Source: Schmidtea polychroa (lineage: Eukaryota). From it: a DNA stretch of 62,000 nucleotides. The stretch spans positions 1,426,001-1,488,000 of the forward strand of contig CM097885.1 in assembly GCA_044892525.1 (NCBI GenBank). The letters are read 5' to 3'. Position 1 is the first letter of the stretch, and each line of letters opens with the position of its first letter. Shown here piece after piece: positions 15,801 through 48,946 of the stretch. The translations under genes were made by a program, and so were the position numbers. The notes beneath the pieces are model-generated. The model was not told where the DNA came from. It worked only from the letters and a program-made list of their open reading frames with translations, and searched no databases.

Positions 15801-15924
15801 AAATATTATTAATTCTACATAAAGACCACCTTTGCTTGAAGCATGCACAGTGCAAGTTAACAAAGGCATGACTAACAAAGGCAGTCACATGTAATTTCTG
15901 AGTGATTTACGTTACATACATGCA

Positions 15925-17095: not shown

Positions 17096-17173
17096 ATAGT
17101 TATAAAATAAATCCTTGTAGTTTGCAATGTCATCTACAATAGTTAAAATAATAATAATATTAATAATAATAAT

Positions 17174-17237
<64 letters not shown>

Positions 17238-17305
17238 TAGTCTACAGTAAGCATGTAGCTACATAGTAGTCTGTAGTGAGCATGCAGCTACTTCTCTTTA
17301 ATATA

Positions 17306-17378
<73 letters not shown>

Positions 17379-17395
17379 TAAATAATATGGCCCTT

Positions 17396-21500: not shown

Positions 21501-21897
21501 AGCTTATGCTTACGCATTGGCCAAAGAGGAACTATGTTCTTCATTGGAGGCTTCTCAAATTGTATATAGAATTAGGTGCGGTGGTTGTAAATATTCATCG
21601 TTGTATAAAGTTTAAACAAGGACCTATCTTTAAATCGTACATAGACACCAACACTACTTTACGATCTCAGTCTACTAGCGAAATATATAGGGACTTGTTT
21701 AAATTGTATAATAATAGTCTGTACGGTTAATCTGTCGAAAATCTGAAAAAACGAATGAATTTGAGGTTGTGTAATTCATCCGAAAAGGTGATAGTATACT
21801 CCTCAAAGCCGACTTTCAGAAAGTCTATAAGAATCGATGGCGATCTGATTGCGGCACATTTGGAAAAAGATTCAATTTGTTTAGACAAACCTAGCTA

Positions 21898-28239: not shown

Positions 28240-29200
28240 ACAAACCAACAACTTAGTACCAACAACCAGTAACTTACAAACATGTATTAACAACCAGATA
28301 CCTACAACTAGTTACTAACAACTAGTTACATGATACTAAGTAAATACAACCACCTAACAAGTACTAACAACCAAAAACAAGCAACCAACCAGGTACCAGT
28401 TACCAACTACTAAGTACCTACAACCAACTAGTTACCTGTTACCAAGTACTTACAACTAAATACTAACAACCAGTTACCTGATACCTAGTACTTACAACTA
28501 GTTACTAACAACCAAAAACAAGCAACCAACTAGGTACCAAGTACTAACAACCAAAAACAACTAGCTAACAACTAGATACCAAGTACCTACAACCACCTAC
28601 CTATTAACTAGCTACCAAGTACTTACAACTAGCTACGACCTACCAAGTACTAACAACTAACAACAACCAGGTACTAGATACCAAGTTTTAACAACCTACA
28701 ACAACTAGGTACTAAGCATTATCAACCAAGTACCTAAAACCACCTTACAAGTACATACAACCAACATCAACCAGGTACCTACAACTAGATACTAACAAAC
28801 AGTTACCAAGTACCTACAACCACCTACCCATTAACTAGCTACAACCAGCTAACAACTAGCTACCAACTACCAAGTACTAACAACCAACAACCAGCTAACA
28901 ACTAACTACCAGATACCTACTACTTACAACCAACAACTAAGTACTAACAACCAGCTAACAACTAGATACCAGGTACTAAGCATTATCAACCAAGTACCTA
29001 CAACTAGATACTAACAACTAGATACCAAGTACCTATAACCACCTACCTATTAACTAGCTACTAGTTACTAACAACTAGATACCAAGTACATACAACCAAC
29101 ATCAACCAGGTACTAAGCATTATCAACCAAGTACTAACAACCAAGTACAAGATACCTAGTACTGTCAACTAGATACCAAACACTTACAACCAGATGACCA
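28240..29200. repeat. Strand-biased C/A-rich satellite (AACAACTAGATACCAAGTAC-type)
   Basis: Degenerate short tandem repeats. Confidence 0.85.
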
Positions 29201-29528
29201 CATGAAATTATTGGTTAAATATGAAAATAAGGGTTATAATTAGTTGTTTAGTAAATTATGGTGTAAAATTAAAGCATAAATAGGTAAATTAAGGATAAGT
29301 AAATTAAAGTTAAAAAATTAAATTAAAGTTAATTAAGGTCCAAATTTTAAAAATAAGTAATCAATGTTCTAAAAAATTAAATTAAAGTTAAATAAGTAAA
29401 TTAAAGTAATAATTTTTAAATAAGTAATGTAATATGAAAATTAAAGTAAGATTTTTAAATTTATTATCAAAAGATTGAATAACCACCAACTTTTTTGAGA
29501 AATGCAATTTTTAATGAAAATTTAAATG

Positions 29529-29571
<43 letters not shown>

Positions 29572-30261
29572 TATAATAATAATTAAACAGTTACCAACAA
29601 TCGGTTACTGATTATTTTTAACTAGGTGCTAACAAATACTTTCAACATGATACCACGTACTAACTAACTCTCAAACAACCACATACTTACAACTAACTAC
29701 TTACAATCAACTAAATATTCTTCATTGTATTTTATGAAATGCTTTTTAAATTAATTTTTTATCTATCTTCAATAATATATTTAATTACAATCAGTAGAAA
29801 AAACGTTTCAAATTTAACAAAAAATGTTGATTTTCATCAAAAAACCACAACTCAACCACTTTAAAACACCACGTGAAATTCAAAATAATTTAAATTACAA
29901 TGAAAGACTAATGAATTCTAATTTACAAAACATTCTTCTTTTAATTGATTACTACTGACTTATTATTGCAAAGTAAAAATCGCATTGTTGATCAGTTTTA
30001 TTATATATACTCTTAGTCTATCCGACAGGATGTTTTGACTCCCTAAGGGTACAGGTCGTATGGGTATTAGTCGTAAGGGTATTAGTCGTAAGGGTACTGG
30101 TCGTAAAGGTACTAGTCGTAGGGATTTTGGTAACACTCAACCACAACCTACCCATTAACTAGCTACTAAGTACTAACCACTAGGTTTCAAACAACAACTA
30201 CTAACAACCACCATAAAAACCCATCGAGAAATTAACAAATATCAACCTACAACTATATAAC
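29002..30261. repeat. Left copy of an outer inverted duplication (partner 47614-48946)
   Basis: Reverse-complement match with SNPs and indels from AACTAGATAC(29002) to AACTATATAAC(30261). Confidence 0.9.
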
Positions 30262-32751
30262 AACAATCAGTAAACAACACTGTACCAACTACCAAATACA
30301 AATTATTCTTCATCGCATACACTATTTTCTTATCAAAATCTAAAAAGTCAACCAACTACTTACAACCAACAACTATGTACTAACAAATTGATCTTTAAAA
30401 GCAAATACTCTTCACTTGAAAAATTGGATGAAAAATTATTTGAACTCAAGGCATCAATAACTTGGTAAAAATTGATTAAATAATTGTAAAAATTTAAATT
30501 ATTCAAAATAAATATCATAAAAATTTAATTAATGGACAAGAAAGAATTCTAATCATTAATCATCCAGTAAATAAAAAAAATACTGATCATTCAAGTTTAA
30601 TCAACTAAGATAATAAATTAATAAAAACTTTGAAATAAGATCTAGTAGAAAATTGATTTAGATTGAATAAATTAATTTAAATAAAATTAATTTTAATTAT
30701 TTTTGTAAAAGTAATACATGTACTCAAATTGATTGACTGATTTCTCAATATATTCAAAAAATCAGTATAAATTCATTACAATTATCATAGTCAGCAATCT
30801 ACAATAAAAATAATTATCATTAAATTCCAAAAGAGACTAGATAACTAATGATAACATCAAACAAACCAGTAAATTCATTTAAATGACAATAATTGGTATA
30901 TCCAAGTGAATTCTCTAATAAAATCATCTAAAAAGCATCATTTCCCCTAAATATATCAATATTTAAAGATTAGTATTTTAATGATAAATACTTGTTAAAG
31001 ATCATATATTCACCTCAAACTAACAAGATTCCTTAATCCATATTAATACAAATATCATCAAATTTCCCTGAAATATCTCTATCTTTTAAGATTAGTATCT
31101 TATCGATAAATATCCTTAAAAGGTTATATATTTACCTCAGAATAATAAGATTCCTTAATATCCTTTTAAATGACTAATTCCTATTATCACGAATATTTCC
31201 CTATAAAACATGTAAAATAATTTGGTCATTAACCCTAAATAATTTATAAAATCTAATAATAAAACCGGTTATAATAAAATTTTTGTTAATCACTGTACTC
31301 GAAATTTAAAATAAATATAACTGACTAGGTCCCATTGAAAGATTAAATTTATCCATTCAATAAAATATATTTCTTCAAATGATCATTTTTACCGATATTC
31401 AACCGATTTAATTATTAATTAAAATCAAGATTCCTTCCAATAAAGATCAATTTTATTTAGTGTTTGTCGATGTTTTAAGTCCACATTTCTCAACTTTTGT
31501 CATTCTCCGCCTAAATAAAGATAAAAATAAATTAAAGTTGAAGTCAATCCCAATTATCTATAAAGATTTCATTGTCAAAACCAAGTAAATCGATCATTAT
31601 CCCTACTTAATAGAACATTGTTCTAAATTAATTTACTGTGCATTAATCACAATCTAATAAAACGATATAATTATTATTGATACATAACTGACTAATGTAT
31701 TGACATTTCCCTTAAAACATTGATATTTTACCAACAGCATACTTAAAAAATCATATATTCCCATCTTAACCCATCTCTCATTAAATTCAATCGACTATAT
31801 CCCCCTTACAATGATATATTTCCATCTTATCTGATCTCTCATTAAATCTTACCGACTATATCCCCTTGAAAAATCATATATTCCCACCTTATCTGATCTC
31901 TTATTAAATCTAACCGACTATATCCCTTTAAAAATCATATATTCCCATCTTAACCCATCCCTCATTAAATTTAATAACCGACAATATCCCATTTTATCCG
32001 ATCTCTCAGCAAATATTTCTACCCTTTTAAACATCTATCCGATTATATCCCTTATTTTCCCTAAAGATTTCACCCACTTGAGCCCTTTAATATATATCAA
32101 TCCTCTTAAAATCCTCAGAGAACTTCAAAAATATGACTTTTAATTAATTGTTATAGAACCAGACAAATAATAAGGGCCCATTAAAAGATCAAAATTCACT
32201 AAATTTTCTACAAATATTTACCATCAAATAAAAATACATCCAATTATCAAGAAATTAATTAAATTTATCTTAGAATTAGCATTAAATTATTAAATATTCA
32301 TTCAATAAACATCAAATTTGCAAAAATGTTAGAAATCCACAAAAATAATAGAAATTTACAAAAATCAAAGAAATGATAGAAATCCACAAAAATAATAGAA
32401 ATTTACAAAAATGATAGATATCCACAAAAATTACTGATATTCACAAAAAAATTATGGAAATTCACAAGAATAATAGAAATTCACAAAAAATGATGGAAAT
32501 TAATGAAAACGATAAAAATTCACAAAAATGATAGAAATTCATAAAAATGATAGAAATTTACTTGAATAAAACCATCAACTCTAAAAATTATCAATGAATG
32601 CCTTATACAAATTTGCCTAAATAATCATTCAAATAAAAGCATTAAATACCTTTACGACTAATACACTTACGACATGTTGAATGTGAGTAGTACCCTTGTG
32701 AGCAGTACCCATAGGGGGACAGAATATTTTGTCGGATAAACTCAGAGTATA
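30006..32751. repeat. Unit bracketed by inverted TATACTC..TATCCGACA..GGGTA motifs; diverged paralog of 38369-40170
   Basis: Motif on + at 30006 and on - ending 32751; interior blocks (ATTGTCAAAACCAAGTAAAT, AATTATCAAGAAATTAATTAAATTTATCTTAG) shared with 39120-39920. Confidence 0.65.
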
Positions 32752-33399
32752 TATTAATTAACTCATTCTTCATTGAATCAGTAAAATTATCATAAATTTC
32801 GATAAAAATTCTAATGTGGTAAGCAATGTAAAAGACAATTATTCTTTAAACTTTGATAAAATTAACAATGAAGGTGGTAAGAATCTTCATTAAAGTGAGG
32901 AAATTATTCATAAGTAGTAGGATGTGGGCCATCCAGATCAGGAGCTCCCCGCGCCACATATACCCCCTCCCCCCCCCCCCCGGGAAAAAAAATTTTTTTT
33001 TTTAATTTTTTGTTTTAATTAATTGGCCTGGCGGGCTCACACTTTTTTTCATCCCAAAAATTAATGTTCCCACCAACGGATTTTATTGGACGATACCTCA
33101 TCTTAAAGCTCAGTCCAAGACCTTTCGATTGATCCATAGAAGGTATCATCATCATTAATATTGACAAAGTTATTAACAATTGATGACCACCATCTTTTCA
33201 ACGTTAAATTATTATTATTATTCAAAATATTATTAATTGGCCGGGCGGGGACATACTTTTTCTCATCCCAAAAATTAATGTTCCCATTATCCGAATTTAT
33301 TAATCGATAGCTTATTTTGAAGCGTAGTCTAAGACCTTTCAATTGAGCCATAGAAGGTATCATCATCATTAACATCGGCAAAGTTATTAAAGTTTTACC

Positions 33400-34032
33400 G
33401 AGACCATTTTTCAAGGTCATTTATTTTTCAAAATATTATTTTCAATATCAAGGTCAAGGTCATTTATTTTTTCAAGGTCATTTATTTTTTCAAGGTCATA
33501 TTTTAAAATTTAAATGTACAGAGTTCCCGACAACGATAATTATTCAACGATAGCTCATTTTAAAGCCCAATGCAAGACCTTTCGATTGATCCATAGAAGG
33601 TATCATCATCATTATTATTGACAAAGTTATTAACAATTGATGACCACCATCTTTTCAAAGTTAAATTATTATTATTTGTCAAAATATTATTAAGTGGCCG
33701 GGAGGGCCCCTACTTTTTTTCATCCCAAAAATTGATGTTCCCACCAACGGATTTTATTGGACGATACCTCATCTTAAAGCTCAGTCCAAGACCTTTCTAA
33801 TGAGATATAGATTTCTATCATACAATGACTCATCACATTTTTAGAACAAAGACAATGACTCATTCGTTGTCTCATCATATTTTTAGAACGATGACTCATC
33901 AAGGTCAAGGTCAAATTTTTAATAAAAGGTCAAGGTCATTTATTATTTTCAAGGTCATTTATTTTTTCAAGGTCATTTATTTTTTCAAGGTCATTTATTA
34001 TTATTTTTTTTTTTAAGTTTTTAGTTTCTAAG

Positions 34033-34102
<70 letters not shown>

Positions 34103-34700
34103 ATTATAATTATAATTATTATATACTCCTAGTCTATCCGACAAGATATTCTGTCCCCCTATGGGTATTGCTCACAAAGGTACTACTCACACTCAACAAG
34201 TAACATGGGTACTGTTCACAAAATTACTGGTAAAAATATTCAAGACAAAACTTTCTAAATTCTAAATATTATTCTTTAAATATACACTAAAATTTATTAA
34301 CACATTCACATTCATCATCTCCACAGTTCATAACATTTTCAACAACATGATCTATACAATCCCTATATACACACGGTTCAGTATCCGTAAATTCCTCCAT
34401 AGGTTCATCAATTGCTTTCCTCATCATCTTGAGTGTTTTCTTCATCTGCTTCATCAAGGTCATTTATTTTTTCAAGGTCATTCCAAAGGTCATTTATTTT
34501 TCAAGGTCATTTATTTTTTCAAGGTCGCGTGACTCATAAAGGTCTTTTTTTTTCAAGGTTATTTTTTAATTTAATTTTTTGTTTTAATTAAGTGATCATT
34601 AAATTTTTCAAGGTCATTTATTTTTTCAAAATATTATTTTTTCAAAATATTATTTTTTCAAGGTCATTTATTTTTCAAGGTCATTTATTATTATTATTAA
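33400..34700. promoter_or_regulatory. Array of (T)CAAGGTCA and TGACTCA motifs in the palindrome arm (mirror ~46620-47120)
   Basis: About 15 or more CAAGGTCA copies; TGACTCA at ~33826, 33856, 33892 and 34529. Confidence 0.5.
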
Positions 34701-34706
34701 TATTAA

Positions 34707-34762
<56 letters not shown>

Positions 34763-35276
34763 CTCTTAGTCTATCCGACAAGATATTTTGTCCCCCTAAG
34801 GGTATTGCTCACAAGGGCACTACTCACATGGGTAATTGTCACAAGGGTACTACTCACATTCAACATGTCGTAAATTATTTTCAAATACAAGTTCAAAGTA
34901 TTATTATTTATTTTAACACGCACGGGAGTTATTATTATTATTATCATATATAGTCAGAGTTTATCCGACAAGATATTCTGCCCCCCTATGTGTACTGCTT
35001 ACATAGGTAATGGTTACAAGGGTACTTCTCACATTCAACATGTCTCAAAGGGTATAATATAATTATTATTAAATTCCGACCAACTTAAATCAATGAAGGG
35101 GTAGAACAAAATATATTACGTTGCGGTATTTTAAAATTTAAATATATTTTAAAAACGTATTTTGATACTAAAGTTTACTTAATTAACAAAGACATAATTA
35201 TTGCACATGCTTTGCATAAATATTATTATTTTTTAAATTTTCAATATTTTCTTTTAAAGTATTAACACGCGCGGGA

Positions 35277-35279
<3 letters not shown>

Positions 35280-35351
<72 letters not shown>

Positions 35352-35862
35352 GTTAATGAAAAATCTAAAATATGGTTTACACACACAACCCATTAACCAT
35401 TATTATTATTATTATCAATATTAAAAACCTAAAATATTTTCTACACACACACACATGCACAACTCATTAACCATTATTATTATCATTATTAGTGAAAACC
35501 TAAAATATTTTTTACACACACACACAACCCATTAACCATTATTATTATTATTATCAATATTAAAAACCTAAAATATTTTTACACACACACATACAACTCA
35601 TTAAACTTATTATTATTATTATTATTATTGCAAATATTAGTCAAAAACCTAAAATATTATTTACACTCACACAACCCATTAACAATTATTATTATCAATA
35701 TTAAAAACCTAAAATATTTTTACACACACACACACAACCCATTAACCATTATTATTATTGCAAATATTAGTCAAAAACATAAAAACACTCATAAACCATT
35801 ATTATTATCAATATTAGTGAAAACCTCAAATATTTTTCACACACATATACAACCCATTAAAC

Positions 35863-35958
<96 letters not shown>

Positions 35959-36276
35959 GCAAATATTAGTCAAAAACATAAAAACACACACTCAACCAAT
36001 TAAATTTTATTATTATCAATATTATTATTATTGCAAATACTAGTCAAAAACTTAAATTTTTTTTTTTTTACACACACACAACCCATTAACAATTATTATT
36101 ATCAATATTAGTGAAAACCTAAAATATTTTTTACACACACACCACCCATTAAACTTTATTATTATTATTATTAGTGAAAAGCTAAAATATTTTTACACAC
36201 ACCCAACCCATTATCAATTATTATTGCAAATATTAGTGAAAAACCTAAAATATTATTTACACACAACCCATTAACA

Positions 36277-36327
<51 letters not shown>

Positions 36328-36360
36328 ATTAGTCAAAAACCTAAAATAATTTTTACACAC
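35280..36360. repeat. Composite (ATT)n/(CA)n tandem repeat, ~60-70-bp unit (mirror 45000-45840)
   Basis: AAAACCTAAAATATTTTTACACACAC..AACCCATTAAC units. Confidence 0.9.
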
Positions 36361-38056
36361 TAAGTTATGGGGTAGAGAATTATTATATGTTTGCAGTATT
36401 CTGTGTTTGCCTTCACGGGAAGTTGACAATAATTTTATACATACATTCCATATACACATACCTTGTTTAACATGGGTGTATATAGTCAGAGTTTATCCGA
36501 CAAAATATTCTGTCCCCCTATGGGTATTGCTCACAAAGGTACTACTCACACTCAACATGTCGCAAGGGTATATTAATTAGGGTTAGTAAATAAAACTTAT
36601 GACACACACTATTTAAACGATAAAAATCAAGACAAGAGAGGACAAGGCAAAGTTTATGCATTTATTATTGCCAGGCCTAATGAGCAGTGACCAAATATCT
36701 GTGCCTGAAAGACACGGTGGATATTTGTTCGCGTCCACAAGGGTCGTCTGTGCCTCCCCCAAGTGGGGTCAAAAGAACCTGGGCATTATAGCTTTCCGTA
36801 CGGAACATTACGCCTAGCATGGGTAGTCAACTACCAGCACATTCGAAACGTATAATTTCAAAATACATGCGTCATTGGCACTATAACCAAATTAATTAAT
36901 GTTTTCACTAACACAAATATATATTTACAGAGGCCTCCCACTAGTTGGATTACAACCGCCCACCACGACGATCAGCTTGTAAATATATATTAATTAAGGG
37001 ATAAAGAGGACCCACCCAACCCTATTATATTTAATTTACAAATTTTTCTCGCTCTTCTGTTGGTAATCTATCTCAAAATTAATCTCTCCATCAGGCCATT
37101 TGATAGTGATTTCATGGAATACATCTTGCAAATTGGACGTATTTCTTAGTTTCTGATGCGGCGTCCACTATCATTGCTAAAATTTATATTGATTTAAAAG
37201 CAATTAACTTACATTATCTAACATTTTATCGTCACAGGCTTGATAAATTAGGCAACTGTTATTTGTGGTATACTTTTTCAATGTCATTTCCCACCATAAA
37301 ACACAGATACCTAAATATAATATATATATATTTTAAAGAATTAATTCATGTCTTACATTAATAATAATATTCTTCAGGTAGTACTTTACAATATCTAATT
37401 GATAAAACATCGGTTTTTTCCCATTTTTCTTGACATTCGTTGAAAGTTTACATAATTTAAGTAAACATTCATGTTGAAGGACACCCCCGATCAGCTAATT
37501 CATTTAAGAAATCCCGAACATAGCAATGTTTCACCATTTTGTCTGGTTCATTTTCTTCTATAATTCATGTTTTAATAAGAAATCTCTAAATCCAGAACAT
37601 AAGTCATTTAGTGTTTCACCATTTTGTTCATCTTCTTCATAATCATATAATTCATTTTCTTCATTACTAAGTAAAATAATTAAAATATTTTAGTAAATTC
37701 TTTATTTACTTACTTTATGGATACTAAAACGAAAGAAATAACGTTATATCAGAATTATATTTAAATAATTTAAATTTAGTTATTTAAACATATTTAAACA
37801 CTTTAGTTATTTAAGCATATTTAAACATTAATATTATTATATAGTATAATTTTATATAATTTTATATAATATTATAATATTATAATATTATAATATAATG
37901 TACACTTATATATCCTTAATTTAATTTTTTAAATTCAAAAATTTATAATGAAGATTCTTTGAATTAAAAAATATTCTGTTAGTATTTCCAGGCAGAAAAC
38001 AACGAATTCAATAATTAAAATCTTAATTTTCATGTTGTTAGGGTTGTGGCCAGAAG

Positions 38057-38359
38057 TTAATCGCCATCTAATCGTTTGTTCTCAATTTTGTTCATTTTGT
38101 TCAAAACATTCAGGTGAGTTGTTATCTGGAAAGTTTCTTTTAGCTCAGCTTTCTTAAAACACTCACGGTATTTTTGAGGGACGTGACACTGGGAATAAAT
38201 TAACAATGGGTGGTCATCCATACATGTTGTTGGTTTGAACTGTTGATTTATTTTAGAAATATGTATATTAAAAACATTTAAGGTATCATTCAGTAAAATA
38301 ATATAGTATTTTTGAGTATTTTTAGTTAATTTATAAATAACAGTATTTTGATATATCAA
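38057..38359 (-). CDS. Hypothetical 100-aa ORF, duplicated at 42982..43284(+)
   Basis: Identical in both arms; TTG start; no recognisable motif. Confidence 0.2.
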   Translation of the reverse strand: MIYQNTVIYKLTKNTQKYYIILLNDTLNVFNIHISKINQQFKPTTCMDDHPLLIYSQCHVPQKYRECFKKAELKETFQITTHLNVLNKMNKIENKRLDGD

Positions 38360-41300
38360 TAAAGACCATATACTCCTAGTTTATCCGACAAGATATTCTG
38401 TCCCCCTATGTGTATTGCTAGCAAGGGTACTGGTCACATTCAACTATTCGCGAGGGTATATTAATTAAGGCATATGTATATTAGTTAAAAGTTCTTAGAT
38501 AATTTAGTGAGATATGCATAATCATTAATAACAACATATATTCATTGATAATTTTGGTAGAAAGTCTTTATCATTTGGAGTAAATTTGTTTGAGGCAAAA
38601 ATAATTAAAGGAGACATAATAGAAATATGGTTATCATTTATCCAATTAAGGGGCCTATTATTTAGAAATATATATTATAAAGTAACAATTATTTTCTAAT
38701 TTAATTAGATGATCATTAGACGTAATATATCTTTGCGAGAAATTTAAGATGTTTGAGTAACCAAAACATGGACATTTTGTGCGATAAATTTATGAATATT
38801 GCTTAATTTTGTTATTTTTAGTCATTTAAAATAATATTTAGCAAAGGTAATTTAGCAAAATATCATTTATCCACCCGATAACAATATTCCTTCAATAGAT
38901 TAACTGATATTCAACCTATTTAATTTCTGGAAATATAATTAAAATCATAAATTTCCTTCATGAAAGTTAAATTTTCTTTAGTTGTCGATGTCTTACTCTT
39001 TTAAGTCAATATTTTTGTTACCGTTATCTTCATAATGAATGTCCGTCTTTAAAATGTTAAATAAAATAATTTAAAGCAATAACCTTTGATATCAATTATC
39101 TCTAAATATTTCAAATATTGCATTGTCAAAACCAAGTAAATTAGTCATTACCCATTAATAAAACCGTGGATAATTAATAAAAACTGGTTCTGAAACATAA
39201 ATTACTGTGCAATAACATTCATCACAACCTCTAAAACGATATAATTTCACAGGAACTATTCATAGCTGACTATTTCCCTTGAAAATTTGATATTTTACCA
39301 ATAAGAATATATAAATATTCAAAACATTAACCGATCCCTCACCAAATATCTTTACCCCTTAAAACACCTTAAATCGTATATATTACCATCTTAACCTTCA
39401 CTAAATCCAACCGAATATAATTTCATCCACTTGTGCCCTTTAATAAATCTTAAAATCTATAGAAAATTCTTCAAAATATGAATTTTATTTAATTGTCACA
39501 GACATTCTTCCATTGAAATAATTTAGTAGCTAAATTCAAAGAGTCCACTAAAAGATCAAAATTCATTAAAATAAATATTTAACCACATGTGTCATCAAAT
39601 ACCTAACTAGAGATGATAATATCTCATTGATTGATCATAATTATAACCATTATAACATGATATATCTTTCAAACTAAATTTAGGTATATTTTACAATAAT
39701 TTTCAAGTAGATTTTAAATATATCATCATCGTGAAAAAATTAGATTGTTTCAACTTTAGATTTTCAATATTTTAAAGTTCATCAATGTGTAAATATTCTT
39801 AGAAAAATATATGAAAAAATTATTTAGTCAAATTATCATTACAAAGTCATCATCATCATCAAAATTAATAAAATATAGCAAATTATCAAGAAATTAATTA
39901 AATTTATCTTAGAATTAACACTAAACCTTAAATATTCTTTCAATTAACATGAAATTCACAAATAAATGTTAGTAAAATCCCGCTAACTCTAAAAAATTAC
40001 CAATGAATTTAATGCCAAATAATAACCAAATATTTGCCTAAATAAAATCATTAAAACACACCAGTACCTTTACGACCAGTACCCTTACGACCAGTACCCT
40101 TACGACCAATACCCTTACAAGCAGTACCCATAGAGGGAGAAAATATTTTGTCGGATAAACTCCGAGTATATATATAATAAAACGAATTAACAATAACTCC
40201 ATCAAATTGAATCAGTCAAATTATCACAAATTTTAATAAAAAATCTTATTCTAAAGTGGTAAGCAGCGTAAAATCGAAAGATAATTTTAATAACACAGAG
40301 ATAAAATTAACAATATTATTCTCAGGTGGTAAGAATATTTTATTTTTGAGTCTGTTATCCCTCTATTATCATTGCTTACTTGATGTTTTCATAAATTTAA
40401 GTAAAGTTAATGCTGAGTATGTGTTCTGACACACTTTGTTTCTTTCTTAACTTTGAGAGATTATTTTGATTAAAAAGAGTAATGTATCTTAAATTATCTT
40501 TTAGAATAACTGTTTTTGAAATATTTAATGTAAAATAGTAAATCTCATAATTAGTAATTCAATATTAAAGGAGTTAATCAAAATTTAAAATATAAAGTTA
40601 TCATAATTGCTTAGTCAAATACCATTTGTTATGTATGTTTGTCATTTTTGGATTAAATACTTTATCAAAATAATTGTTTATCACATTATTATCATTCGTT
40701 AGTCACTCATATATTAGAAATAATTTATAAATACTCATCACTTATAGCCCCCCATTTTCCACTAATCCTCCCAACAACTATTTCTTTGAACATTGAATTA
40801 AATATTTTTTTTTTATTAAAGTGATCATTTTTATAAATTTTTATAAATTTCATGAAATAATTTTAAATAAATGCAATTAATATATTTCCATCTTATCTAT
40901 GACACTTCTCGGTATATTTACATTTACGTTCCATTAATGAATAATTCAAACCCTTATTTTCACCTTTTTGAATTTCATTATTAATTAATCATAGAATAAT
41001 GATGATTCTTACCACCTGAGAATAATATTGTTAATTTTATCTCTGTGTTATTAAAATTATCTTTCGATTTTACGCTGCTTACCACTTTAGAATAAGATTT
41101 TTTATTAAAATTTGTGATAATTTGACTGATTCAATTTGATGGAGTTATTGTTAATTCGTTTTATTATATATATACTCGGAGTTTATCCGACAAAATATTT
41201 TCTCCCTCTATGGGTACTGCTTGTAAGGGTATTGGTCGTAAGGGTACTGGTCGTAAGGGTACTGGTCGTAAAGGTACTGGTGTGTTTTAATGATTTTATT

Positions 41301-44300
41301 TAGGCAAATATTTGGTTATTATTTGGCATTAAATTCATTGGTAATTTTTTAGAGTTAGCGGGATTTTACTAACATTTATTTGTGAATTTCATGTTAATTG
41401 AAAGAATATTTAAGGTTTAGTGTTAATTCTAAGATAAATTTAATTAATTTCTTGATAATTTGCTATATTTTATTAATTTTGATGATGATGATGACTTTGT
41501 AATGATAATTTGACTAAATAATTTTTTCATATATTTTTCTAAGAATATTTACACATTGATGAACTTTAAAATATTGAAAATCTAAAGTTGAAACAATCTA
41601 ATTTTTTCACGATGATGATATATTTAAAATCTACTTGAAAATTATTGTAAAATATACCTAAATTTAGTTTGAAAGATATATCATGTTATAATGGTTATAA
41701 TTATGATCAATCAATGAGATATTATCATCTCTAGTTAGGTATTTGATGACACATGTGGTTAAATATTTATTTTAATGAATTTTGATCTTTTAGTGGACTC
41801 TTTGAATTTAGCTACTAAATTATTTCAATGGAAGAATGTCTGTGACAATTAAATAAAATTCATATTTTGAAGAATTTTCTATAGATTTTAAGATTTATTA
41901 AAGGGCACAAGTGGATGAAATTATATTCGGTTGGATTTAGTGAAGGTTAAGATGGTAATATATACGATTTAAGGTGTTTTAAGGGGTAAAGATATTTGGT
42001 GAGGGATCGGTTAATGTTTTGAATATTTATATATTCTTATTGGTAAAATATCAAATTTTCAAGGGAAATAGTCAGCTATGAATAGTTCCTGTGAAATTAT
42101 ATCGTTTTAGAGGTTGTGATGAATGTTATTGCACAGTAATTTATGTTTCAGAACCAGTTTTTATTAATTATCCACGGTTTTATTAATGGGTAATGACTAA
42201 TTTACTTGGTTTTGACAATGCAATATTTGAAATATTTAGAGATAATTGATATCAAAGGTTATTGCTTTAAATTATTTTATTTAACATTTTAAAGACGGAC
42301 ATTCATTATGAAGATAACGGTAACAAAAATATTGACTTAAAAGAGTAAGACATCGACAACTAAAGAAAATTTAACTTTCATGAAGGAAATTTATGATTTT
42401 AATTATATTTCCAGAAATTAAATAGGTTGAATATCAGTTAATCTATTGAAGGAATATTGTTATCGGGTGGATAAATGATATTTTGCTAAATTACCTTTGC
42501 TAAATATTATTTTAAATGACTAAAAATAACAAAATTAAGCAATATTCATAAATTTATCGCACAAAATGTCCATGTTTTGGTTACTCAAACATCTTAAATT
42601 TCTCGCAAAGATATATTACGTCTAATGATCATCTAATTAAATTAGAAAATAATTGTTACTTTATAATATATATTTCTAAATAATAGGCCCCTTAATTGGA
42701 TAAATGATAACCATATTTCTATTATGTCTCCTTTAATTATTTTTGCCTCAAACAAATTTACTCCAAATGATAAAGACTTTCTACCAAAATTATCAATGAA
42801 TATATGTTGTTATTAATGATTATGCATATCTCACTAAATTATCTAAGAACTTTTAACTAATATACATATGCCTTAATTAATATACCCTCGCGAATAGTTG
42901 AATGTGACCAGTACCCTTGCTAGCAATACACATAGGGGGACAGAATATCTTGTCGGATAAACTAGGAGTATATGGTCTTTATTGATATATCAAAATACTG
43001 TTATTTATAAATTAACTAAAAATACTCAAAAATACTATATTATTTTACTGAATGATACCTTAAATGTTTTTAATATACATATTTCTAAAATAAATCAACA
43101 GTTCAAACCAACAACATGTATGGATGACCACCCATTGTTAATTTATTCCCAGTGTCACGTCCCTCAAAAATACCGTGAGTGTTTTAAGAAAGCTGAGCTA
43201 AAAGAAACTTTCCAGATAACAACTCACCTGAATGTTTTGAACAAAATGAACAAAATTGAGAACAAACGATTAGATGGCGATTAACTTCTGGCCACAACCC
43301 TAACAACATGAAAATTAAGATTTTAATTATTGAATTCGTTGTTTTCTGCCTGGAAATACTAACAGAATATTTTTTAATTCAAAGAATCTTCATTATAAAT
43401 TTTTGAATTTAAAAAATTAAATTAAGGATATATAAGTGTACATAATATTATAATATTATAATATTATAATATTATATAAAATTATATAAAATTATACTAT
43501 ATAATAATATTAATGTTTAAATATGCTTAAATAACTAAAGTGTTTAAATATGTTTAAATAACTAAATTTAAATTATTTAAATATAATTCTGATATAACGT
43601 TATTTCTTTCGTTTTAGTATCCATAAAGTAAGTAAATAAAGAATTTACTAAAATATTTTAATTATTTTACTTAGTAATGAAGAAAATGAATTATATGATT
43701 ATGAAGAAGATGAACAAAATGGTGAAACACTAAATGACTTATGTTCTGGATTTAGAGATTTCTTATTAAAACATGAATTATAGAAGAAAATGAACCAGAC
43801 AAAATGGTGAAACATTGCTATGTTCGGGATTTCTTAAATGAATTAGCTGATTGGGGGTGTCCTTCAACATGAATGTTTACTTAAATTATGTAAACTTTCA
43901 ACGAATGTCAAGAAAAATGGGAAAAAACCGATGTTTTATCAATTAGATATTGTAAAGTACTACCTGAAGAATATTATTATTAATGTAAGACATGAATTAA
44001 TTCTTTAAAATATATATATATTATATTTAGGTATCTGTGTTTTATGGTGGGAAATGACATTGAAAAAGTATACCACAAATAACAGTTGCCTAATTTATCA
44101 AGCCTGTGACGATAAAATGTTAGATAATGTAAGTTAATTGCTTTTAAATCAATATAAATTTTAGCAATGATAGTGGACGCCGCATCAGAAACTAAGAAAT
44201 ACGTCCAATTTGCAAGATGTATTCCATGAAATCACTATCAAATGGCCTGATGGAGAGATTAATTTTGAGATAGATTACCAACAGAAGAGCGAGAAAAATT

Positions 44301-45034
44301 TGTAAATTAAATATAATAGGGTTGGGTGGGTCCTCTTTATCCCTTAATTAATATATATTTACAAGCTGATCGTCGTGGTGGGCGGTTGTAATCCAACTAG
44401 TGGGAGGCCTCTGTAAATATATATTTGTGTTAGTGAAAACATTAATTAATTTGGTTATAGTGCCAATGACGCATGTATTTTGAAATTATACGTTTCGAAT
44501 GTGCTGGTAGTTGACTACCCATGTTAGGCGTAATGTTCCGTACGGAAAACTATAATGCCCAGGTTCTTTTGACCCCACTTGGGGAAGGCACAGACGACCC
44601 TTGTGGACGCGAACAAATATCCACCGTGTCTTTCAGGCACAGATATTTGGTCACTGCTCATTAGGCCTGGCAATAATAAATGCATAAACTTTGCCTTGTC
44701 CTCTCTTGTCTTGATTTTTATCGTTTAAATAGTGTGTGTGATAGGTTTTATTTACTAACCATAATTAATATACCCTTGCGATATGTTGAGTGTGAGTAGT
44801 ACCTTTGTGAGCAATACCCATAGGGGGACAGAATATTTTGTCGGATAGACTAGGAGTATATACACCCATGTTAAACAAGGTATGTGTATATAGAATGTGT
44901 GTGTAAAATTATCGCTCCTTATTGACAACTTCCTGTAAAGGCAAACACAGAATACTGCAAACATAATAATACTCTACCCCATAACTTAGTATGTAAAAAT
45001 TATTTAAGGTTTTTTCACTAATAATAATAATAAT

Positions 45035-45085
<51 letters not shown>

Positions 45086-45793
45086 GTTTAATGGGTTGTG
45101 TGAGTGTAAATAATATTCTAGGTTTTCACGAATAATGATAATAATAATGGTTTATGAGTGTTTTTATGTTTTTGACTAATATTTGCAATAATAATAATGG
45201 TTAATGAGTTGTGCATGTGTGTGTGTGTAGAAATATTTTAGGTTTTTAATATTGATAATAATAATTGTTAATGGGTTGTGTGTGTGTGTGTAAAAAAATA
45301 TTTTATGTTTTCACTAATAATGATAATAATAATAAGTTTAATGAGTTGTATGTGTGTGTGTGTAAAAATATTTTAGGTTTTTAATATTGATAATAATAAT
45401 TGTTAGTGGGTTGTGTGTGTGTGTGTAAAAAATATTTTAGGTTTTCACTAATAATGATAATAATAATGGTTAATGAGTTGTGCATGTGTAAATAATATTT
45501 TAGGTTTTTGACTAATATTGATAATAATAATTGTTAATGGGTTGTGTGAGTGTAAATAATATTTTAGGTTTTTGACTAATATTTGCAATATAAATAATAA
45601 TAATAATAAGTTTAATGAGTTGTATGTGTGTGTGTAAAAATATTTTAGGTTTTTAATATTGATAATAATAATAATGGTTAATGGGTTGTGTGTGTGTGTG
45701 TGTGTAGAAAATATTTTAGGTTTTTAATACTGATAATAATAATAATGGTTGAGGGGTTGTGTGTGTAAACCATATTTTAGATTTTTCATTAAC

Positions 45794-45835
<42 letters not shown>

Positions 45836-46199
45836 TCCCGCGCGTGTTAATACTTTAAAAGAAAATATTGAAAATTTAAAAAATAATAATATTTATGCAA
45901 AGCATGTGCAATAATTATGTCTTTGTTAATTAAGTAAACTTTAGTGTCAAAATAAGTTTTTAAAATATTTTTAAATTTTAAAATACCGCAACTTAATATA
46001 TTTTTGTTCTACCCCTTCATTGATTTAAGTTGGTCAGAATTTAATAATAATTATATTATACCCTTTGAGACATGTTGAATGTGAGTAGTACACCTTGCTA
46101 CCATTACCCATATGAGCAATACCCATAAAGGGATAGAATATTTTGTCGGATAGATTAAGAGTATATATGATAATAATATTCCCGGTGCGCGTAATAATA

Positions 46200-46269
<70 letters not shown>

Positions 46270-46489
46270 TTACTTTGAAATGTATGTTGTAGTGAGCACA
46301 CCACTAATTATATGAGTTGAGCGTATATTTAAAGAATAATATTTAGAATTTAGAAAGTTTTACCTTGAATATTTTTACCAGTACCTTTGTGAACAATAAC
46401 CATGTGACTTGTTGAGTGTGAGTAGTACCCTTGCTAGCAATACCCATAGGGAGACAGAATATCTTGTCGGATAGACTAGGAGTATATAT

Positions 46490-46558
<69 letters not shown>

Positions 46559-47613
46559 TAAAATAATAATAATAATAATAAAACTTAGAAACTAAAAACT
46601 TAGAAAATAATAATTATTTTAATAAATGACCTTGAAAAATTAAATGACCTTGAAAAGTAAATGACCTTGAAAATTAAATGACCTTGAAAATTAAATGACC
46701 TTGAAAATTAAATGACCTTGAAAATAAAAAGATTACTTAATTAAAACAAAAAATTAAATTAAAAAAAATGACCTTGACCTTGATGAGTCATATGACCTTG
46801 GGAATGACCTTGATGAGTCATCGTTCTAAAAATATTAGACATCGTTGGGTGAGTCATTGGGTGAGTCATTCTCTTTGTTAATATTAATGATGATGATACC
46901 TTCTATGGCTCATTCGAAAGGTCTTGGACTGATCTTTAAGATGAGGTATCGTCCAATAAATTCGGATAATGGGAACATTAATTTTTGGGATGAAAAAAAA
47001 GTAGGGGCCATCCCGGCCACATAATTATAAAAAAAAAAAATGACCTTGAAAATAATAAATGACCTTGACCTTTTATTAAAAATTTGACCTTGACCTTGAA
47101 AATAATAAATGACCTTGAAAAATGGTCTCGGTAAAACTTTAATAACTTTGCCGATGTTAATGATGATGATACCTTCTATGGCTCAATTGAAAGGTCTTGC
47201 ATTGGGCTTTAAGATGAGCTATCGTCCAAGAAAATCCGTTGGCGGGAACATTAATTTTTGGGACGAAAAAAAGTGTGAGCCCTCCCGGCCAATTAATAAT
47301 ATTTTGGAAAATAATAATAATTTAACGTTGAAAAGATGGTGGTCATCAATTGTTAATAACTTTGCCGATGTTAATGATGATGATACCTTCTATGGATCAA
47401 TCGAAAGGTCTTGGAATGAGCTTTAAGATGAGGTATCGTCCAATAAAATCCGTTGGTGGGAACATTAATTTTTGGGATGAAAAAAAGTGTGAGCCCGCCA
47501 GGCCAATTAATTAAAACAAAAAATTAAAAAAAAAAAATTTTTTTTCCCGGGGGGGGGAGGGGGTATATGTGGCGCGGGGAGCTCCTGATCTGGATGGCCC
47601 ACATCCTACTACT

Positions 47614-48324
47614 GTTATATAGTTGTAGGTTGATATTTGTTAATTTCTCGATGGGTTTTTATGGTGTTTGTTAGTAGTTGTTGTTTGAAACCTAGTGGTT
47701 AGTACTTAGTAACTAGTTAATGGGTAGGTTGTGGTTGAGTGTTACCAATACCCCTACGACTAGTACCTTTACGACCAGTACCCTTACGACTAAAACCCTT
47801 ACGACTAATACCCATACGACCAGTACCCTTACGACCTGTACCCTTAGGGGGTCAAAACATCCTGTCGGATAGACTAAGAGTATATATAATAAAACTGATC
47901 AACAATAAGTATTTATTGAATGCGATTTTTACTTTGCAATAATAAGTCAGTAGTAATCAATTAAAAGAAGAATGTTTTGTTAATTAGAATTCATTAGTCT
48001 TTCATTGTAATTTAAATTATTTTGAATTTCACGTGGTGATGAGTTGTGGTTTTTTTTGATGAAAATCAACATTTTTTGTTAAATTTGAAAAGGTTTTTCT
48101 ACTGATTGTAATTAAAATTATTATAGAAGATGTATAAAAAATTAATTTAAAAAGCATTTCATAAAATACAATGAAAAATATTTAGTAGTTCGTTGTAAGT
48201 ATCTGGTTGTTTGAGAGTTAGTACGTGATATCATGTTGAAAGTACTTATTTGTTAGCACTTAGTTAAAAATATTTAGTAACCGATTGTTGGTAACTGTTG
48301 AATTATTATTATTATTATTATTAA

Positions 48325-48371
<47 letters not shown>

Positions 48372-48946
48372 CATTAAAATTTCCATTTAAATTTTCATTA
48401 AAAATTACATTTCTCAAAAAAGTTGGTGGTTATTCAATCTTTTGATAATAAATTTAAAAATCTTACTTTAATTTACTTATTACATTACTTATTTAAAAAT
48501 TATTACTTTAATTAAATTCTTTAAAATTTATTACTTTAATTTACTTATTTAACATTAATTTAATTTTTTAGAACATTGATTACTTATTTTTAAAATTTGG
48601 ACCTTAATTAACTTTAATTTAATTTTTTTAACTTTAATTTACTTATCCTTAATTTACATATTTATGCTTTATTACTTAATTTTACACCATAATTTACTAA
48701 ACAACTAATTATAACCCTTATTTTCATATTTAACCAATAATTTCATGTGGTCATCTGGTTGTAAGTGTTTGGTATCTAGTTGACAGTACTAGGTATCTTG
48801 TACTTGGTTGTTAGTACTTGGTTGATAATGCTTAGTACCTGGTTGATGTTGGTTGTATGTACTTGGTATCTAGTTGTTAGTAACTAGTAGCTAGTTAATA
48901 GGTAGGTGGTTGTAGGTACTTGGTATCTAGTTGTTAGTATCTAGTT
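47614..48946. repeat. Right copy of the outer inverted duplication
   Basis: Reverse complement of 29002-30261. Confidence 0.9.

What the first reader, a model, noticed from the sequence alone, without database searches (positions are those of the whole stretch)
32913..47613. 14.7-kb gene-less palindrome with Polinton AGTAGT ends: candidate copy-back or satellite Polinton
Seen: both ends carry an AGTAGT terminus with near-identical terminal ~190 bp. The arms (32913-40336, 41005-47613) are reverse complements around a 668-bp spacer, and there is no viral gene. The inner ~3.7 kb differ by only a few SNPs, while the middle of the arms differs in repeat counts. Known: AGT-repeat ends are the Polinton protein-priming and integrase-recognition termini, and Polintons are about 15-20 kb with much shorter TIRs. 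Inference: this is a snap-back defective genome that keeps only the cis-ends, is close to capsid-packaging length, and could be replicated, packaged and integrated in trans by helpers. Its terminus differs from A's after AGTAGT, implying another helper family.
Basis: partly seen in the sequence, partly recalled or inferred. Interest (0 to 1): 0.85.

Follow-up and report, generated by a model that had tools for sequence, protein, structure and literature searches.

The report
Palindromic gene-less Polinton satellite family
This 14.7-kb stretch is one copy of an abundant family of gene-free, mirror-image DNA elements that carry the ends of a virus-like transposon (a Polinton) and are inserted around the genome by it, which gives a clue to how such elements copy themselves.

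Summary
Window 32913-47613 is a 14.7-kb palindrome (arms 7424 and 6609 bp, 668-bp spacer) with AGTAGTAGG ends and no viral gene.

It is not a one-off:
- The 668-bp spacer recurs full-length at 99% identity; a spacer 30-mer has 227 matches, and a sister subtype has 497.
- All 7 fully read copies are palindromes of 12.9-14.7 kb.
- 25 of 26 element pairs with the exact 30-bp terminus have perfect 6-bp target duplications. The window copy is the one exception.

A helper exists. A 16.9-kb Polinton ("B") has the same 30-bp terminus and 1.7-kb TIRs. It encodes protein-primed PolB, rve integrase, an A32-like ATPase and a double-jelly-roll capsid protein. Its gene markers match about 1,800-1,900 times, and a truncated copy lies at window 12208-21899.

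Two other palindromic derivatives exist. One is a PolB-end dimer. The other is a single-copy left-end dimer whose turnaround sits at an 11/12-bp inverted microhomology. This points to recurrent fold-back (copy-back) of linear replication intermediates followed by integration.

Arms within an element are 98.7-100% identical, while elements differ by up to 6% (spacers up to 25%), so the arms evolve in concert.

The window copy is nested in another long-inverted-repeat element and rearranged at one end. Replication and packaging in trans remain untested.

The parts
32913..32942 (+). Left terminus: the 30-mer AGTAGTAGGATGTGGGCCATCCAGATCAGG, shared with helper Polinton B
   Evidence: The exact 30-mer has 95 genome matches against 0 for the control. 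It is identical at both ends of the 16.9-kb gene-bearing element F1.
47584..47613 (-). Right terminus: the same 30-mer, reverse-complemented
32913..34457 (+). Outer left arm, homologous at 80-92% to the 1.7-kb TIR of Polinton B. It includes ~214-bp subterminal repeats. Its mirror is 46113-47613.
   Evidence: F1 versus window BLAST; repeats D1/D2
34454..36331 (.). Tandem-repeat block of the left arm: 18-bp, (TTA)n and 63-71-bp units. Its mirror is 45019-46729, with different copy numbers.
   Evidence: TRF; arm profile
36332..40336 (.). Unique non-coding inner left arm. It has no homologue in the helper and no protein hit. 36818-40336 has only 2 mismatches to its mirror. The mirror of the inner arm is 41005-45009.
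40337..41004 (+). Asymmetric 668-bp spacer, the family-specific centre
   Evidence: 40 of 40 scored genome hits are full-length at 99-100%. An internal 30-mer has 227 matches. Homologous spacers with the same boundaries occur in E1, E3 and E4 at 75-91%.
41005..47613 (-). Right arm: the reverse complement of the left arm, 815 bp shorter
12208..21899 (+). Truncated copy of helper-family Polinton B. It runs from the integrase C-terminus through a 355-aa ORF, a 124-aa ORF and the capsid gene to a fragmented PolB.
   Evidence: Colinear with F1 5381-14217 at 73-90%. Protein identities are 42-96%.
29002..32912 (+). Left arm of another long-inverted-repeat element ('family C'), in which the palindrome is nested
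   Evidence: 29002-30262 is inverted against 47613-48946 at 89%. 30263 onward matches the inward continuation of both arms of other C copies.
47614..48946 (-). Outer part of the right arm of family C. It abuts the palindrome's right terminus. At least 2.65 kb of its inward continuation is missing.

Best explanation
Window 32913-47613 is one copy, locally rearranged, of a high-copy family of gene-less palindromic non-autonomous derivatives of a Polinton family that I call B.

**Shown:**
- Family members have two identical Polinton-B termini, 6-7 kb arms and a conserved asymmetric ~650-bp centre.
- They are flanked by perfect 6-bp target duplications at many loci. They were therefore inserted as whole palindromic units by an integrase-type reaction.
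- A gene-bearing B element has the same 30-bp terminus. It encodes protein-primed PolB, rve integrase, a packaging ATPase and a double-jelly-roll capsid protein, and its markers are very abundant.
- Palindromic derivatives arose more than once in this lineage.

**Inferred:**
- The palindromes originate when a nascent strand of a linear, protein-primed replication intermediate folds back at a short inverted repeat and copies itself. The result is an inverted dimer of one genome end.
- Such dimers keep both cis-acting ends. B's polymerase/terminal protein and integrase then propagate them in trans.
- Each replication passes through a snap-back hairpin or strand switch between the arms, which keeps the two arms identical.
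- A length of 76-91% of the helper's may reflect packaging into helper capsids.

**The window copy:** it lost its target duplication through a deletion or recombination at one end, inside an older long-inverted-repeat element.
For: **Family and palindromy**
- Terminal 200 bp: 40 scored hits at 94-100% out of 2323 first-look candidates.
- Spacer: 40 of 40 scored hits are full-length at 99-100%.
- Spacer 30-mers: 227 matches for the window subtype and 497 for the E1/E3 subtype. Controls gave 0.
- All 7 fully fetched copies (W, E1, E3, E4, S1, S2, S3) are palindromes.
- 4 of 10 sampled midpoints of further pairs carry the family centre. Two more pairs carry the spacer marker at their midpoint.

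**Integration**
- 25 of 26 exact-terminus pairs have a perfect 6-bp TSD. One of them, E2, lies in an (AT)n run and is uninformative.
- S1 and S2, with variant termini, also have perfect TSDs.

**Helper (F1)**
- 16.9 kb, TSD AATAAA, 1.7-kb TIRs.
- PolB matches PF03175 at 4.7e-22.
- rve integrase and Pox_A32 ATPase domains (on the 99% identical E2 genes).
- The 407-aa protein folds with pLDDT 88.6. Its best Foldseek hits are iridovirus, PBCV-1, Sputnik and mavirus major capsid proteins, with E down to 4.7e-19.
- Marker 30-mers: 1822 matches (integrase) and 1920 (PolB).

**Recurrent fold-back**
- G1 is an 8.76-kb PolB-end palindrome with arms 99.8% identical.
- 8 inverted PolB-marker pairs lie 2-6.8 kb apart among the first 100 exact hits.
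- The element at C3:104406245-104421568 has an inverted junction in the capsid gene, at an 11/12-bp inverted microhomology 101 bp apart. That junction is unique in the genome, and the element has TSD AATGTG.

**Concerted arms**
- Intra-element identity is 98.7-100%. Between elements it is 94.3-99.1% in a 1.1-kb block.
- Arms never group by side.
- Spacers differ by up to 25% between subtypes yet keep the same boundaries.
Against: - This copy has no TSD. No reciprocal junction was recognisable.
- Only the outer ~1.5 kb of the arms is homologous to the helper. The ~5.4-kb inner arm and the spacer have no homologue in F1. The founding copy-back event of this family is therefore not reconstructed, and the source of the filler is unknown.
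- No microhomology is evident at this family's own junction.
- Arm identity could equally come from in-situ arm-to-arm gene conversion, or partly from assembly polishing.
- The narrow length range may simply be inherited. Shorter derivatives of 5.3-11.3 kb also carry TSDs.
- In the one full-length B copy fetched, PolB lies in two overlapping reading frames.
- The left-end dimer is known only from its 800-bp midpoint, its 40-bp ends and its length.
Confidence: 0.75

Rival explanations
1. It is an ordinary non-autonomous DNA transposon, only large. Chromosomal copies are cut and pasted or copied by B's integrase alone. There is no extrachromosomal replication or packaging. The palindrome is a historical accident, and the arms stay identical through in-situ arm-to-arm gene conversion, as in large chromosomal palindromes.
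For: - TSDs and shared termini prove only integration.
- The inner arm has no helper homologue.
- The terminus 22-mer has no match in viral or metagenome contigs.
- Divergent patches occur in some copies: S3, and the outer arms of W and S1.
Against: - Palindromic derivatives arose at least three times, each with proper termini on both sides.
- One is a single-copy dimer with a microhomology turnaround and a TSD. That is hard to make from an integrated copy. It fits a free linear molecule that was dimerised before integration.
Confidence: 0.2
2. It is a one-off chromosomal head-to-head rearrangement, or two neighbouring insertions fused. On this view the window structure is local and not a mobile unit.
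For: - This copy alone lacks a TSD.
- Its outer arms differ (81-97%, and 815 bp in length), with a sharp switch at about 36817.
- It lies inside a family-C element whose right inner arm is missing.
Against: - The same arm-spacer-arm architecture, with the same spacer, recurs at over 200 loci with TSDs.
- Hybrid outer arms also occur in S1, which has a perfect TSD.
- The rearrangement therefore explains only this copy's missing TSD, not the palindrome.
Confidence: 0.03
3. It is an assembly artefact: fold-back chimeric reads or a collapsed repeat created the palindrome.
For: - Palindromes are a known artefact class of long-read libraries (recalled, not from a call).
- I could not lay reads on the region.
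Against: - Independent loci on four chromosome-scale contigs show the same structure.
- Those copies differ in arm length, in subtype and in flanks with matching 6-bp duplications.
Confidence: 0.02
4. It is a Foldback-type transposon family with its own, unrelated transposase, and only resembles Polinton ends.
For: Long TIRs built partly of tandem repeats with a short centre are the Foldback architecture (recalled).
Against: - The terminal 30 bp are identical to the gene-bearing Polinton B.
- A further ~1.5 kb is TIR-homologous to it.
- TSDs are 6 bp, as in that element.
- Chimeras that join B's gene module to one arm exist in several copies.
Confidence: 0.02

Closest known systems
Polinton / Maverick elements (polintoviruses)
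   Same: - The 30-bp terminus is identical, and the TIRs are homologous, to a gene-bearing element with pPolB, rve integrase, A32-like ATPase and DJR capsid protein.
- TSDs are 6 bp.
- The terminus has a trinucleotide reiteration (AGTAGTAGG). That suits slide-back initiation by protein-primed polymerases (established knowledge, not tested here).
   Different: - It has no gene at all.
- The TIRs are 6-7 kb, covering ~95% of the element, against 1.7 kb in the helper.
- Most of each arm is unrelated to the helper.
Snap-back / copy-back defective viral genomes. Examples: AAV snapback genomes (PMC8235507, abstract start seen in the listing); adenovirus incomplete-particle genomes and the pGKL-derived hairpin plasmid of yeast (both recalled, not seen).
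   Same: - It is an inverted duplication of one genome end that keeps the replication and integration termini.
- It depends on a helper.
- Turnaround at short inverted repeats is seen in the single-copy left-end dimer.
   Different: - These are germline-integrated, TSD-flanked and amplified to hundreds of copies.
- They have diversified into subtypes.
- Free or packaged forms have not been observed.
Foldback (FB) transposons of Drosophila and FB-like elements (recalled)
   Same: - Very long TIRs contain tandem repeats.
- The centre is short.
- Arm lengths vary between copies.
   Different: The termini, TSD length and partner element are those of a Polinton, not of an FB/MULE-type transposase.
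MITEs and other non-autonomous DNA transposons
   Same: - They have no coding capacity.
- Ends and TSD match those of an autonomous partner.
- Copy number is high.
   Different: - The size is ~14 kb, 76-91% of the partner, rather than a few hundred bp.
- The body is fully palindromic and is not an internal-deletion derivative of the partner.
Tlr1 of Tetrahymena, 'sometimes viewed as non-autonomous polintons' (PMC5499653, passage read)
   Same: It is a Polinton-related element with long, complex inverted repeats.
   Different: Tlr1 carries genes and is regarded there as a polinton-like virus family. The elements here are gene-less.

Membership tests
Polinton/Maverick (autonomous) | [quoted passage not shown] | tested here: not met
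   There is no ORF and no tblastn hit to three PolB versions in 32913-47613. The helper F1 does encode it.
Polinton/Maverick (autonomous) | Encodes a retroviral-type (rve) integrase | tested here: not met
   No hit in the element. It is present in E2 and F1.
Polinton/Maverick (autonomous) | Terminal inverted repeats and a 6-bp target-site duplication | tested here: inconclusive
   TIRs are met. The TSD is absent in this copy but perfect in 25 of 26 exact-terminus pairs of the family.
Non-autonomous derivative of Polinton family B | Same termini as a gene-bearing partner in the same genome | tested here: met
   The 30-mer is identical at both ends of F1. The outer ~1.5 kb is homologous to F1's TIR at 80-92%.
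Non-autonomous derivative of Polinton family B | Multiple copies inserted at independent sites with the partner's TSD length | tested here: met
Non-autonomous derivative of Polinton family B | Mobilised in trans by the partner's proteins | not testable with these tools
   Inferred from the shared ends and TSDs only.
Copy-back / snap-back defective genome | Inverted duplication of one genome end around a turnaround point, contiguous with the parent on one side | tested here: inconclusive
   - Met for G1 and for the single-copy left-end dimer, whose turnaround is an 11/12-bp inverted microhomology.
- For the window's family only the outer arm matches the parent. One arm plus half the spacer is colinear with the chimera E2.
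Copy-back / snap-back defective genome | Replicated and packaged by a helper; interferes with it | not testable with these tools
   No read, RNA or particle data could be used.
Foldback (FB) transposons | Long TIRs of tandem repeats with a short or absent centre | tested here: met
Foldback (FB) transposons | FB-type ends and TSD, with an associated FB/MULE-type transposase (recalled definition) | tested here: not met
   The ends and the 6-bp TSD are those of Polinton B.

The most novel reading that the evidence does not exclude
These palindromes are a true satellite / defective-interfering lineage of an endogenous animal polintovirus.
- They are made and remade by fold-back of protein-primed linear replication intermediates, so that one arm templates the other in each cycle.
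- They are packaged into helper capsids, which would explain a length of 76-91% of the helper's.
- They are re-integrated by the helper's integrase.

If so, their structure is direct genomic evidence that animal Polintons have an extrachromosomal, virus-like replication phase. As hundreds of ready-made hairpins, they could also feed small-RNA defence against the helper.
Probability: 0.3. Interest if true: 0.9.

Novelty: new variant of a known kind. Interest (0 to 1): 0.75.

Why it matters
How Polintons replicate and move has been a matter of models. A protein-primed, self-synthesising or virus-like cycle is assumed from gene content.

This genome holds abundant, independently arisen inverted dimers of Polinton ends. 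Each has two proper termini and a target duplication. These are the products expected if linear replication intermediates exist, fold back, and are then integrated.

That makes the model testable. One can look for free hairpin or palindromic molecules and for particles carrying them.

It also defines a new architecture for non-autonomous elements: gene-less, near-helper-length, fully palindromic.
- The family markers give 724 matches. If each stands for a ~14-kb copy, that is about 10 Mb, or roughly 1% of the genome. This is a rough estimate.
- Such repeats matter for genome assembly.
- They can affect genome stability, since palindromes are fragile.
- They may supply small-RNA silencing of the helper.

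Tried and rejected
- **Reads.** There is therefore no read-level or expression evidence of any kind.
- **Reciprocal junctions for the missing TSD.** The element end joined to TTCATA or to TATAAC gave 2 exact hits each, on distant contigs. Their flanks show no continuity with the window, and this number of hits is expected by chance.
- **Public collections.** The terminus 22-mer had 0 matches in viral contigs and 0 in metagenome contigs.
- **Earlier notes of this scan.** None, by place or by sequence.
- **Rfam.** The only hit was a weak Metazoa_SRP-like match at 36878-36976 and its mirror (29.6 bits against a gathering score of 70). It was not reproduced on 36700-37150.
- **Terminal 80 nt folded as ssDNA.** No better than shuffles, z = -0.02.
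- **TIR of Polinton A'.** I found no inverted repeat of 47000-49300 in 59000-70000.
- **'Only the PolB-proximal end is duplicated'.** Rejected after a left-end dimer was found.
- **'Outer arms are generally more diverged'.** This came from BLAST gap effects. Global alignment shows E1, E3, E4 and S2 at 98-100% over the whole arms.
- **Literature.** Searches found no paper in the held library that describes palindromic, fold-back or copy-back Polinton derivatives. Kapitonov and Jurka 2006 is not held. Repbase entries could not be consulted.

Full report
**1. Setting**

The window is G000:C1:1426001-1488000. The genome is AT-rich and eukaryotic, 781 Mb in size, with four chromosome-scale contigs of 272, 190, 145 and 93 Mb. 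No tool named the organism.

The window is crowded with Polinton genes:
- 1 to about 12200 holds family 'A': PolB of 1464 aa, an A32-like ATPase and other ORFs.
- 48975-62000 holds an inverted, 75-93% identical relative, A'. It encodes PolB, ATPase, rve integrase and a DJR capsid protein.
- 12208-21899 holds a truncated copy of a different family, which I call B.

**2.

- AGTAGTAGGATGTGGGCC... starts at 32913 on the + strand and at 47613 on the - strand.
- The terminal 200 bp align with 194 matches, 3 mismatches and 6 gap columns.
- The arms are 32913-40336 (7424 bp) and 41005-47613 (6609 bp), around a 668-bp spacer.
- The inner 3908 nt of the arms differ at 16 positions. Fourteen lie in 36438-36817 and only two in 36818-40336.
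- Further out, identity per 500 aligned columns is 81-97%, with many indels. These fall in arrays of (TTA)n, 18-bp and 63-71-bp units.
- No ATG ORF of 120 aa or more lies between 24911 and 49245.
- tblastn with 36 Polinton proteins found only a piece of one small TIR-embedded ORF.

The left flank ends in TTCATA and the right flank starts with GTTATA.

**3. It is a family, and the family is palindromic**

Copy number:
- The first 200 bp gave 40 scored hits at 94-100% identity, out of 2323 first-look candidates.
- The 668-bp spacer gave 40 of 40 scored hits full-length at 99-100%, out of 1877 candidates.
- A spacer 30-mer matches 227 times with up to 2 mismatches, 115 forward and 112 reverse; the reversed control gave 0.
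- A 30-mer of a sister spacer subtype matches 497 times.

Copies read in full: I fetched five places paired by terminus hits, and three chosen only by spacer hits.
- Seven of the eight are arm-spacer-arm palindromes: W, E1, E3, E4, S1, S2 and S3.
- Their arms are 4.8-7.4 kb. Their centres are 614-694 bp, except S2 at 2.8 kb.
- The spacers of E1 and E3 are 75-78% identical to the window's, and E4's is 89-91%. All keep the same boundaries. The architecture is therefore older than the subtypes.

**4. They were inserted as units**

- The exact 30-bp terminus occurs 95 times, 46 forward and 49 reverse.
- In that list I find 26 forward-reverse pairs within 17 kb of each other. Their sizes in kb are 5.3, 9.9, 10.7, 11.3, 12.0, 12.1, 12.9, 13.2, 13.2, 13.4, 13.5, 13.6, 13.6, 13.7, 14.0, 14.1, 14.2, 14.2, 14.7, 14.9, 15.0, 15.2, 15.3, 15.4, 15.6 and 16.9.
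- I read the flanks of all 26. Twenty-five have a perfect 6-bp duplication. One of these lies in an (AT)n run and is uninformative.
- The window copy is the single exception.
- S1 and S2 have variant termini (AGTAGTATGATTGG...) and also have perfect TSDs.

**5. The helper**

The 16.9-kb pair (F1, C2:36071407-36088352, TSD AATAAA) is a gene-bearing Polinton with the same 30-bp terminus.
- Its TIRs are 1.7 kb.
- It has a TBP-like gene, an A32-like ATPase and an rve integrase with a weak, sub-threshold chromodomain match. These were identified on the 99% identical E2 genes.
- It has a PolB, matching PF03175 at 4.7e-22. The PolB lies in two overlapping frames.
- Its 407-aa protein has 170 homologues at E of 1e-5 or better. 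It folds with mean pLDDT 88.6 and pTM 0.87. Its best Foldseek matches are the major capsid proteins of an iridovirus (E = 4.7e-19), PBCV-1, Sputnik and mavirus.
- B is therefore a complete polintovirus-type element.
- 30-mers from its integrase and PolB match 1822 and 1920 times, with up to 3 mismatches and controls of 0.

Only the outer ~1.5 kb of the palindrome's arms (32992-34457 and its mirror) is homologous to F1's TIR, at 80-92%. The ~5.4-kb inner arm and the spacer have no counterpart in F1. The source of that filler is unknown.

**6. Other palindromic derivatives**

- **G1** (8.76 kb) has a variant terminus. It is an asymmetric palindrome of the PolB end, with arms 99.8% identical.
- Among the first 100 exact PolB-marker hits there are 8 inverted pairs 2.0-6.8 kb apart. 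Only the G1 pair was fetched.
- **Midpoints.** I read 800 bp at the midpoint of 10 further pairs:
  - 4 have the family centre.
  - 2 lie in the innermost arm.
  - 2 lie mid-arm; these are the 9.9-kb and 10.7-kb elements.
  - 1 is gene-bearing.
  - 1 is an inverted junction inside the capsid gene (C3:104406245-104421568, 15.3 kb).
- **The left-end dimer.** In that last element the two sides are 99.7% identical over 349 bp around a 101-bp centre.
  - The turnaround lies in an 11/12-bp inverted repeat of the parental sequence: F1 7595-7606 against the reverse complement of 7708-7719.
  - The junction 32-mer is unique in the genome.
  - The element has TSD AATGTG.
- **E2** joins B's gene module, without PolB, to one arm of the palindromic family. 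The join lies inside the spacer. At least five more loci show the same marker spacing.

**7. Concerted arms**

- In a 1.1-kb block present in all copies, the two arms of an element are 98.7-100% identical. Different elements are 94.3-99.1% identical.
- When arms are labelled by the side of the asymmetric spacer they adjoin, they never group by side.
- Over whole arms, E1, E3, E4 and S2 are 98-100% identical. S3 has one divergent patch. W and S1 have divergent outer halves.
- S1 nevertheless has a perfect TSD. Hybrid arms can therefore predate integration.
- The architecture predates subtype divergence, with spacers up to 25% apart. Independent evolution of the arms would have left them at least as different as the subtypes are. 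They are not, so one arm is repeatedly copied from or corrected against the other.

**8. Mechanism**

Shown: whole palindromic units with B's termini are integrated with 6-bp duplications, and palindromic dimers of either end of B arise repeatedly.

Inferred:
- A dimer with two proper termini and a TSD is hard to make from an integrated copy. It is the expected product if a linear, protein-primed intermediate folds back at a short inverted repeat, copies itself, is replicated once more through the loop, and is then integrated.
- The unique left-end dimer shows that signature.
- The window's family would be an old product of this kind. It lost or never had genes, gained filler, and spread in trans.
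- A displaced strand of such a molecule must snap back into a 7-kb hairpin. Repair or strand switching in that form would homogenise the arms.
- In-situ gene conversion is the alternative, and I cannot exclude it.
- The 13 palindromic copies measure 12.9-15.4 kb, against 16.9 kb for F1 (76-91%). This is compatible with a packaging constraint but equally with plain inheritance. Shorter TSD-flanked derivatives exist.

**9. This copy**

- Its right end abuts a 1.3-kb repeat (47614-48946), whose inverted partner is 29002-30262.
- That repeat belongs to another high-copy long-inverted-repeat family, C.
- In two other C elements both arms run on inward past ...TATATAAC with AACAATCAG.... The window's left arm does the same at 30263. 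The window's right arm is replaced there by the palindrome's terminus.
- The palindrome therefore sits inside a C element from which at least 2.65 kb of the right arm is missing, with one deletion endpoint exactly at the element end.
- Two explanations fit. One is an adjacent deletion. The other is recombination between two nearby family copies, which the sharp switch in arm identity at about 36817 would also fit.
- Searches for reciprocal junctions were uninformative.
- Both flanks belong to one C element, which argues against a misjoin of distant loci.

**10. What is known**

Papers and what I saw of them:
- PMC6431247, passages: it describes Polintons as PolB- and integrase-encoding elements.
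- PMC5499653, passages: it defines Polintons by pPolB plus integrase, and mentions Tlr1 as 'sometimes' called non-autonomous polintons.
- PMC8532177 and a flatworm genome preprint, passages: they show that Polintons/Mavericks can be abundant and piRNA-targeted in some invertebrates. I did not establish that this genome is one of those.
- PMC8235507, abstract start in the listing only: AAV snapback genomes.
- Adenovirus incomplete-particle genomes, the yeast pGKL hairpin plasmid and Drosophila Foldback elements are recalled, not seen.

Searches found no paper in the held library on palindromic, fold-back or copy-back Polinton derivatives. Repbase and Kapitonov and Jurka 2006 could not be consulted. 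The novelty claim is limited to that.

**11. Limits**

- No reads could be laid.
- No RNA holder was listed.
- The sample of copies is small and biased towards the best-scoring hits.
- Marker counts are counts of 30-mers, not of whole elements.
- Arm identities rest on one assembly.

**12. Verdict**

The element is a new architectural variant of a non-autonomous Polinton. It has real mechanistic interest.

Noticed in passing
window 29002-32912 and 47614-48946: A second long-inverted-repeat family ('C') encloses the palindrome.
- A 347-bp piece of it has 40 scored hits at 97-100% out of 3111 first-look candidates. These include 10 inverted pairs 3.7-8.6 kb apart.
- In two pairs checked, the two arms are almost identical and continue inward past the point where the window's right arm is cut by the palindrome.
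- Its outer arm carries ~220-bp tandem repeats.
- It may be the analogous palindromic satellite of another Polinton family.
   Followed up: partly
G000:C3:104406245-104421568 (midpoint L103; ends L085/L086): A 15.3-kb element with B termini and TSD AATGTG.
- Its midpoint is an inverted junction inside the capsid gene. The arms are 99.7% identical over the 349 bp read on each side of a 101-bp centre.
- The junction lies at an 11/12-bp inverted microhomology and is unique in the genome.
- It looks like a fresh left-end fold-back dimer that carries genes in duplicate.
- Only the midpoint, the ends and the length were read.
   Followed up: partly
L049+L050 (G000:C1:69322599-69331356): An 8.76-kb palindromic PolB-end derivative with a variant terminus (AGTAGATGG...), inserted in a (TAA)n run.
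- Eight inverted PolB-marker pairs 2-6.8 kb apart occur among the first 100 exact hits. Three of them are ~4.6 kb apart, which suggests that this type is also multi-copy.
   Followed up: partly
L033+L034 (G000:C3:81149917-81165109, 'E2'): A 15.2-kb chimera: B's gene module without PolB, joined inside the spacer to one arm of the palindromic family.
- At least 5 further loci show the same 3.9-kb spacing between the integrase marker and the spacer marker.
- It is therefore a PolB-less, capsid- and integrase-bearing sub-family.
   Followed up: partly
L047:2920-3396 (-) and L033:4519-4995 (-): Polinton B encodes a 159-aa TATA-box-binding-protein-like protein (Pfam TBP 1.4e-15; best PDB match 2z8u_A, E = 1.7e-16). 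The palindrome arms carry repeated modules that end in TATATAT-rich motifs. Any link between the two was not tested.
   Followed up: partly
window 1-12200 and 48975-62000: Two copies of another Polinton family (A and A') lie in inverted orientation at 75-93% identity.
- A' PolB lacks about the first 460 residues.
- Its start at 48975 is shared at 100% identity by at least 9 other genomic copies.
   Followed up: partly
window 57538-58947 (-): The Polinton A' integrase ORF carries an N-terminal parvovirus-type phospholipase-A2-like domain (PF08398, 4e-9) ahead of rve.
   Followed up: no
window 7403-11797 (-): The 1464-aa PolB of Polinton A starts with a C2H2 zinc finger (zf-C2H2_jaz, 1.7e-5).
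   Followed up: no
window 20000-26000: A block with higher G+C (34-42%) follows the truncated B PolB. It holds a reverse-transcriptase fragment (22029-22655) and a DUF4371/hAT-like ORF (23212-24201).
   Followed up: no
L048:2219-6375 (F1) and window 18697-21730: PolB of family B lies in two overlapping reading frames in the full-length copy fetched, and in three pieces in the window copy. Whether this reflects a mutation, an intron or something else was not resolved.
   Followed up: no
window 60469-60792: A perfect tandem duplication of a 162-bp unit lies just beyond the A' capsid gene.
   Followed up: no
window 36878-36976 (-) and 44365-44463 (+): A weak Metazoa_SRP-like Rfam match (29.6 bits, gathering score 70) in both arms. 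It was not reproduced in a narrower scan.
   Followed up: yes
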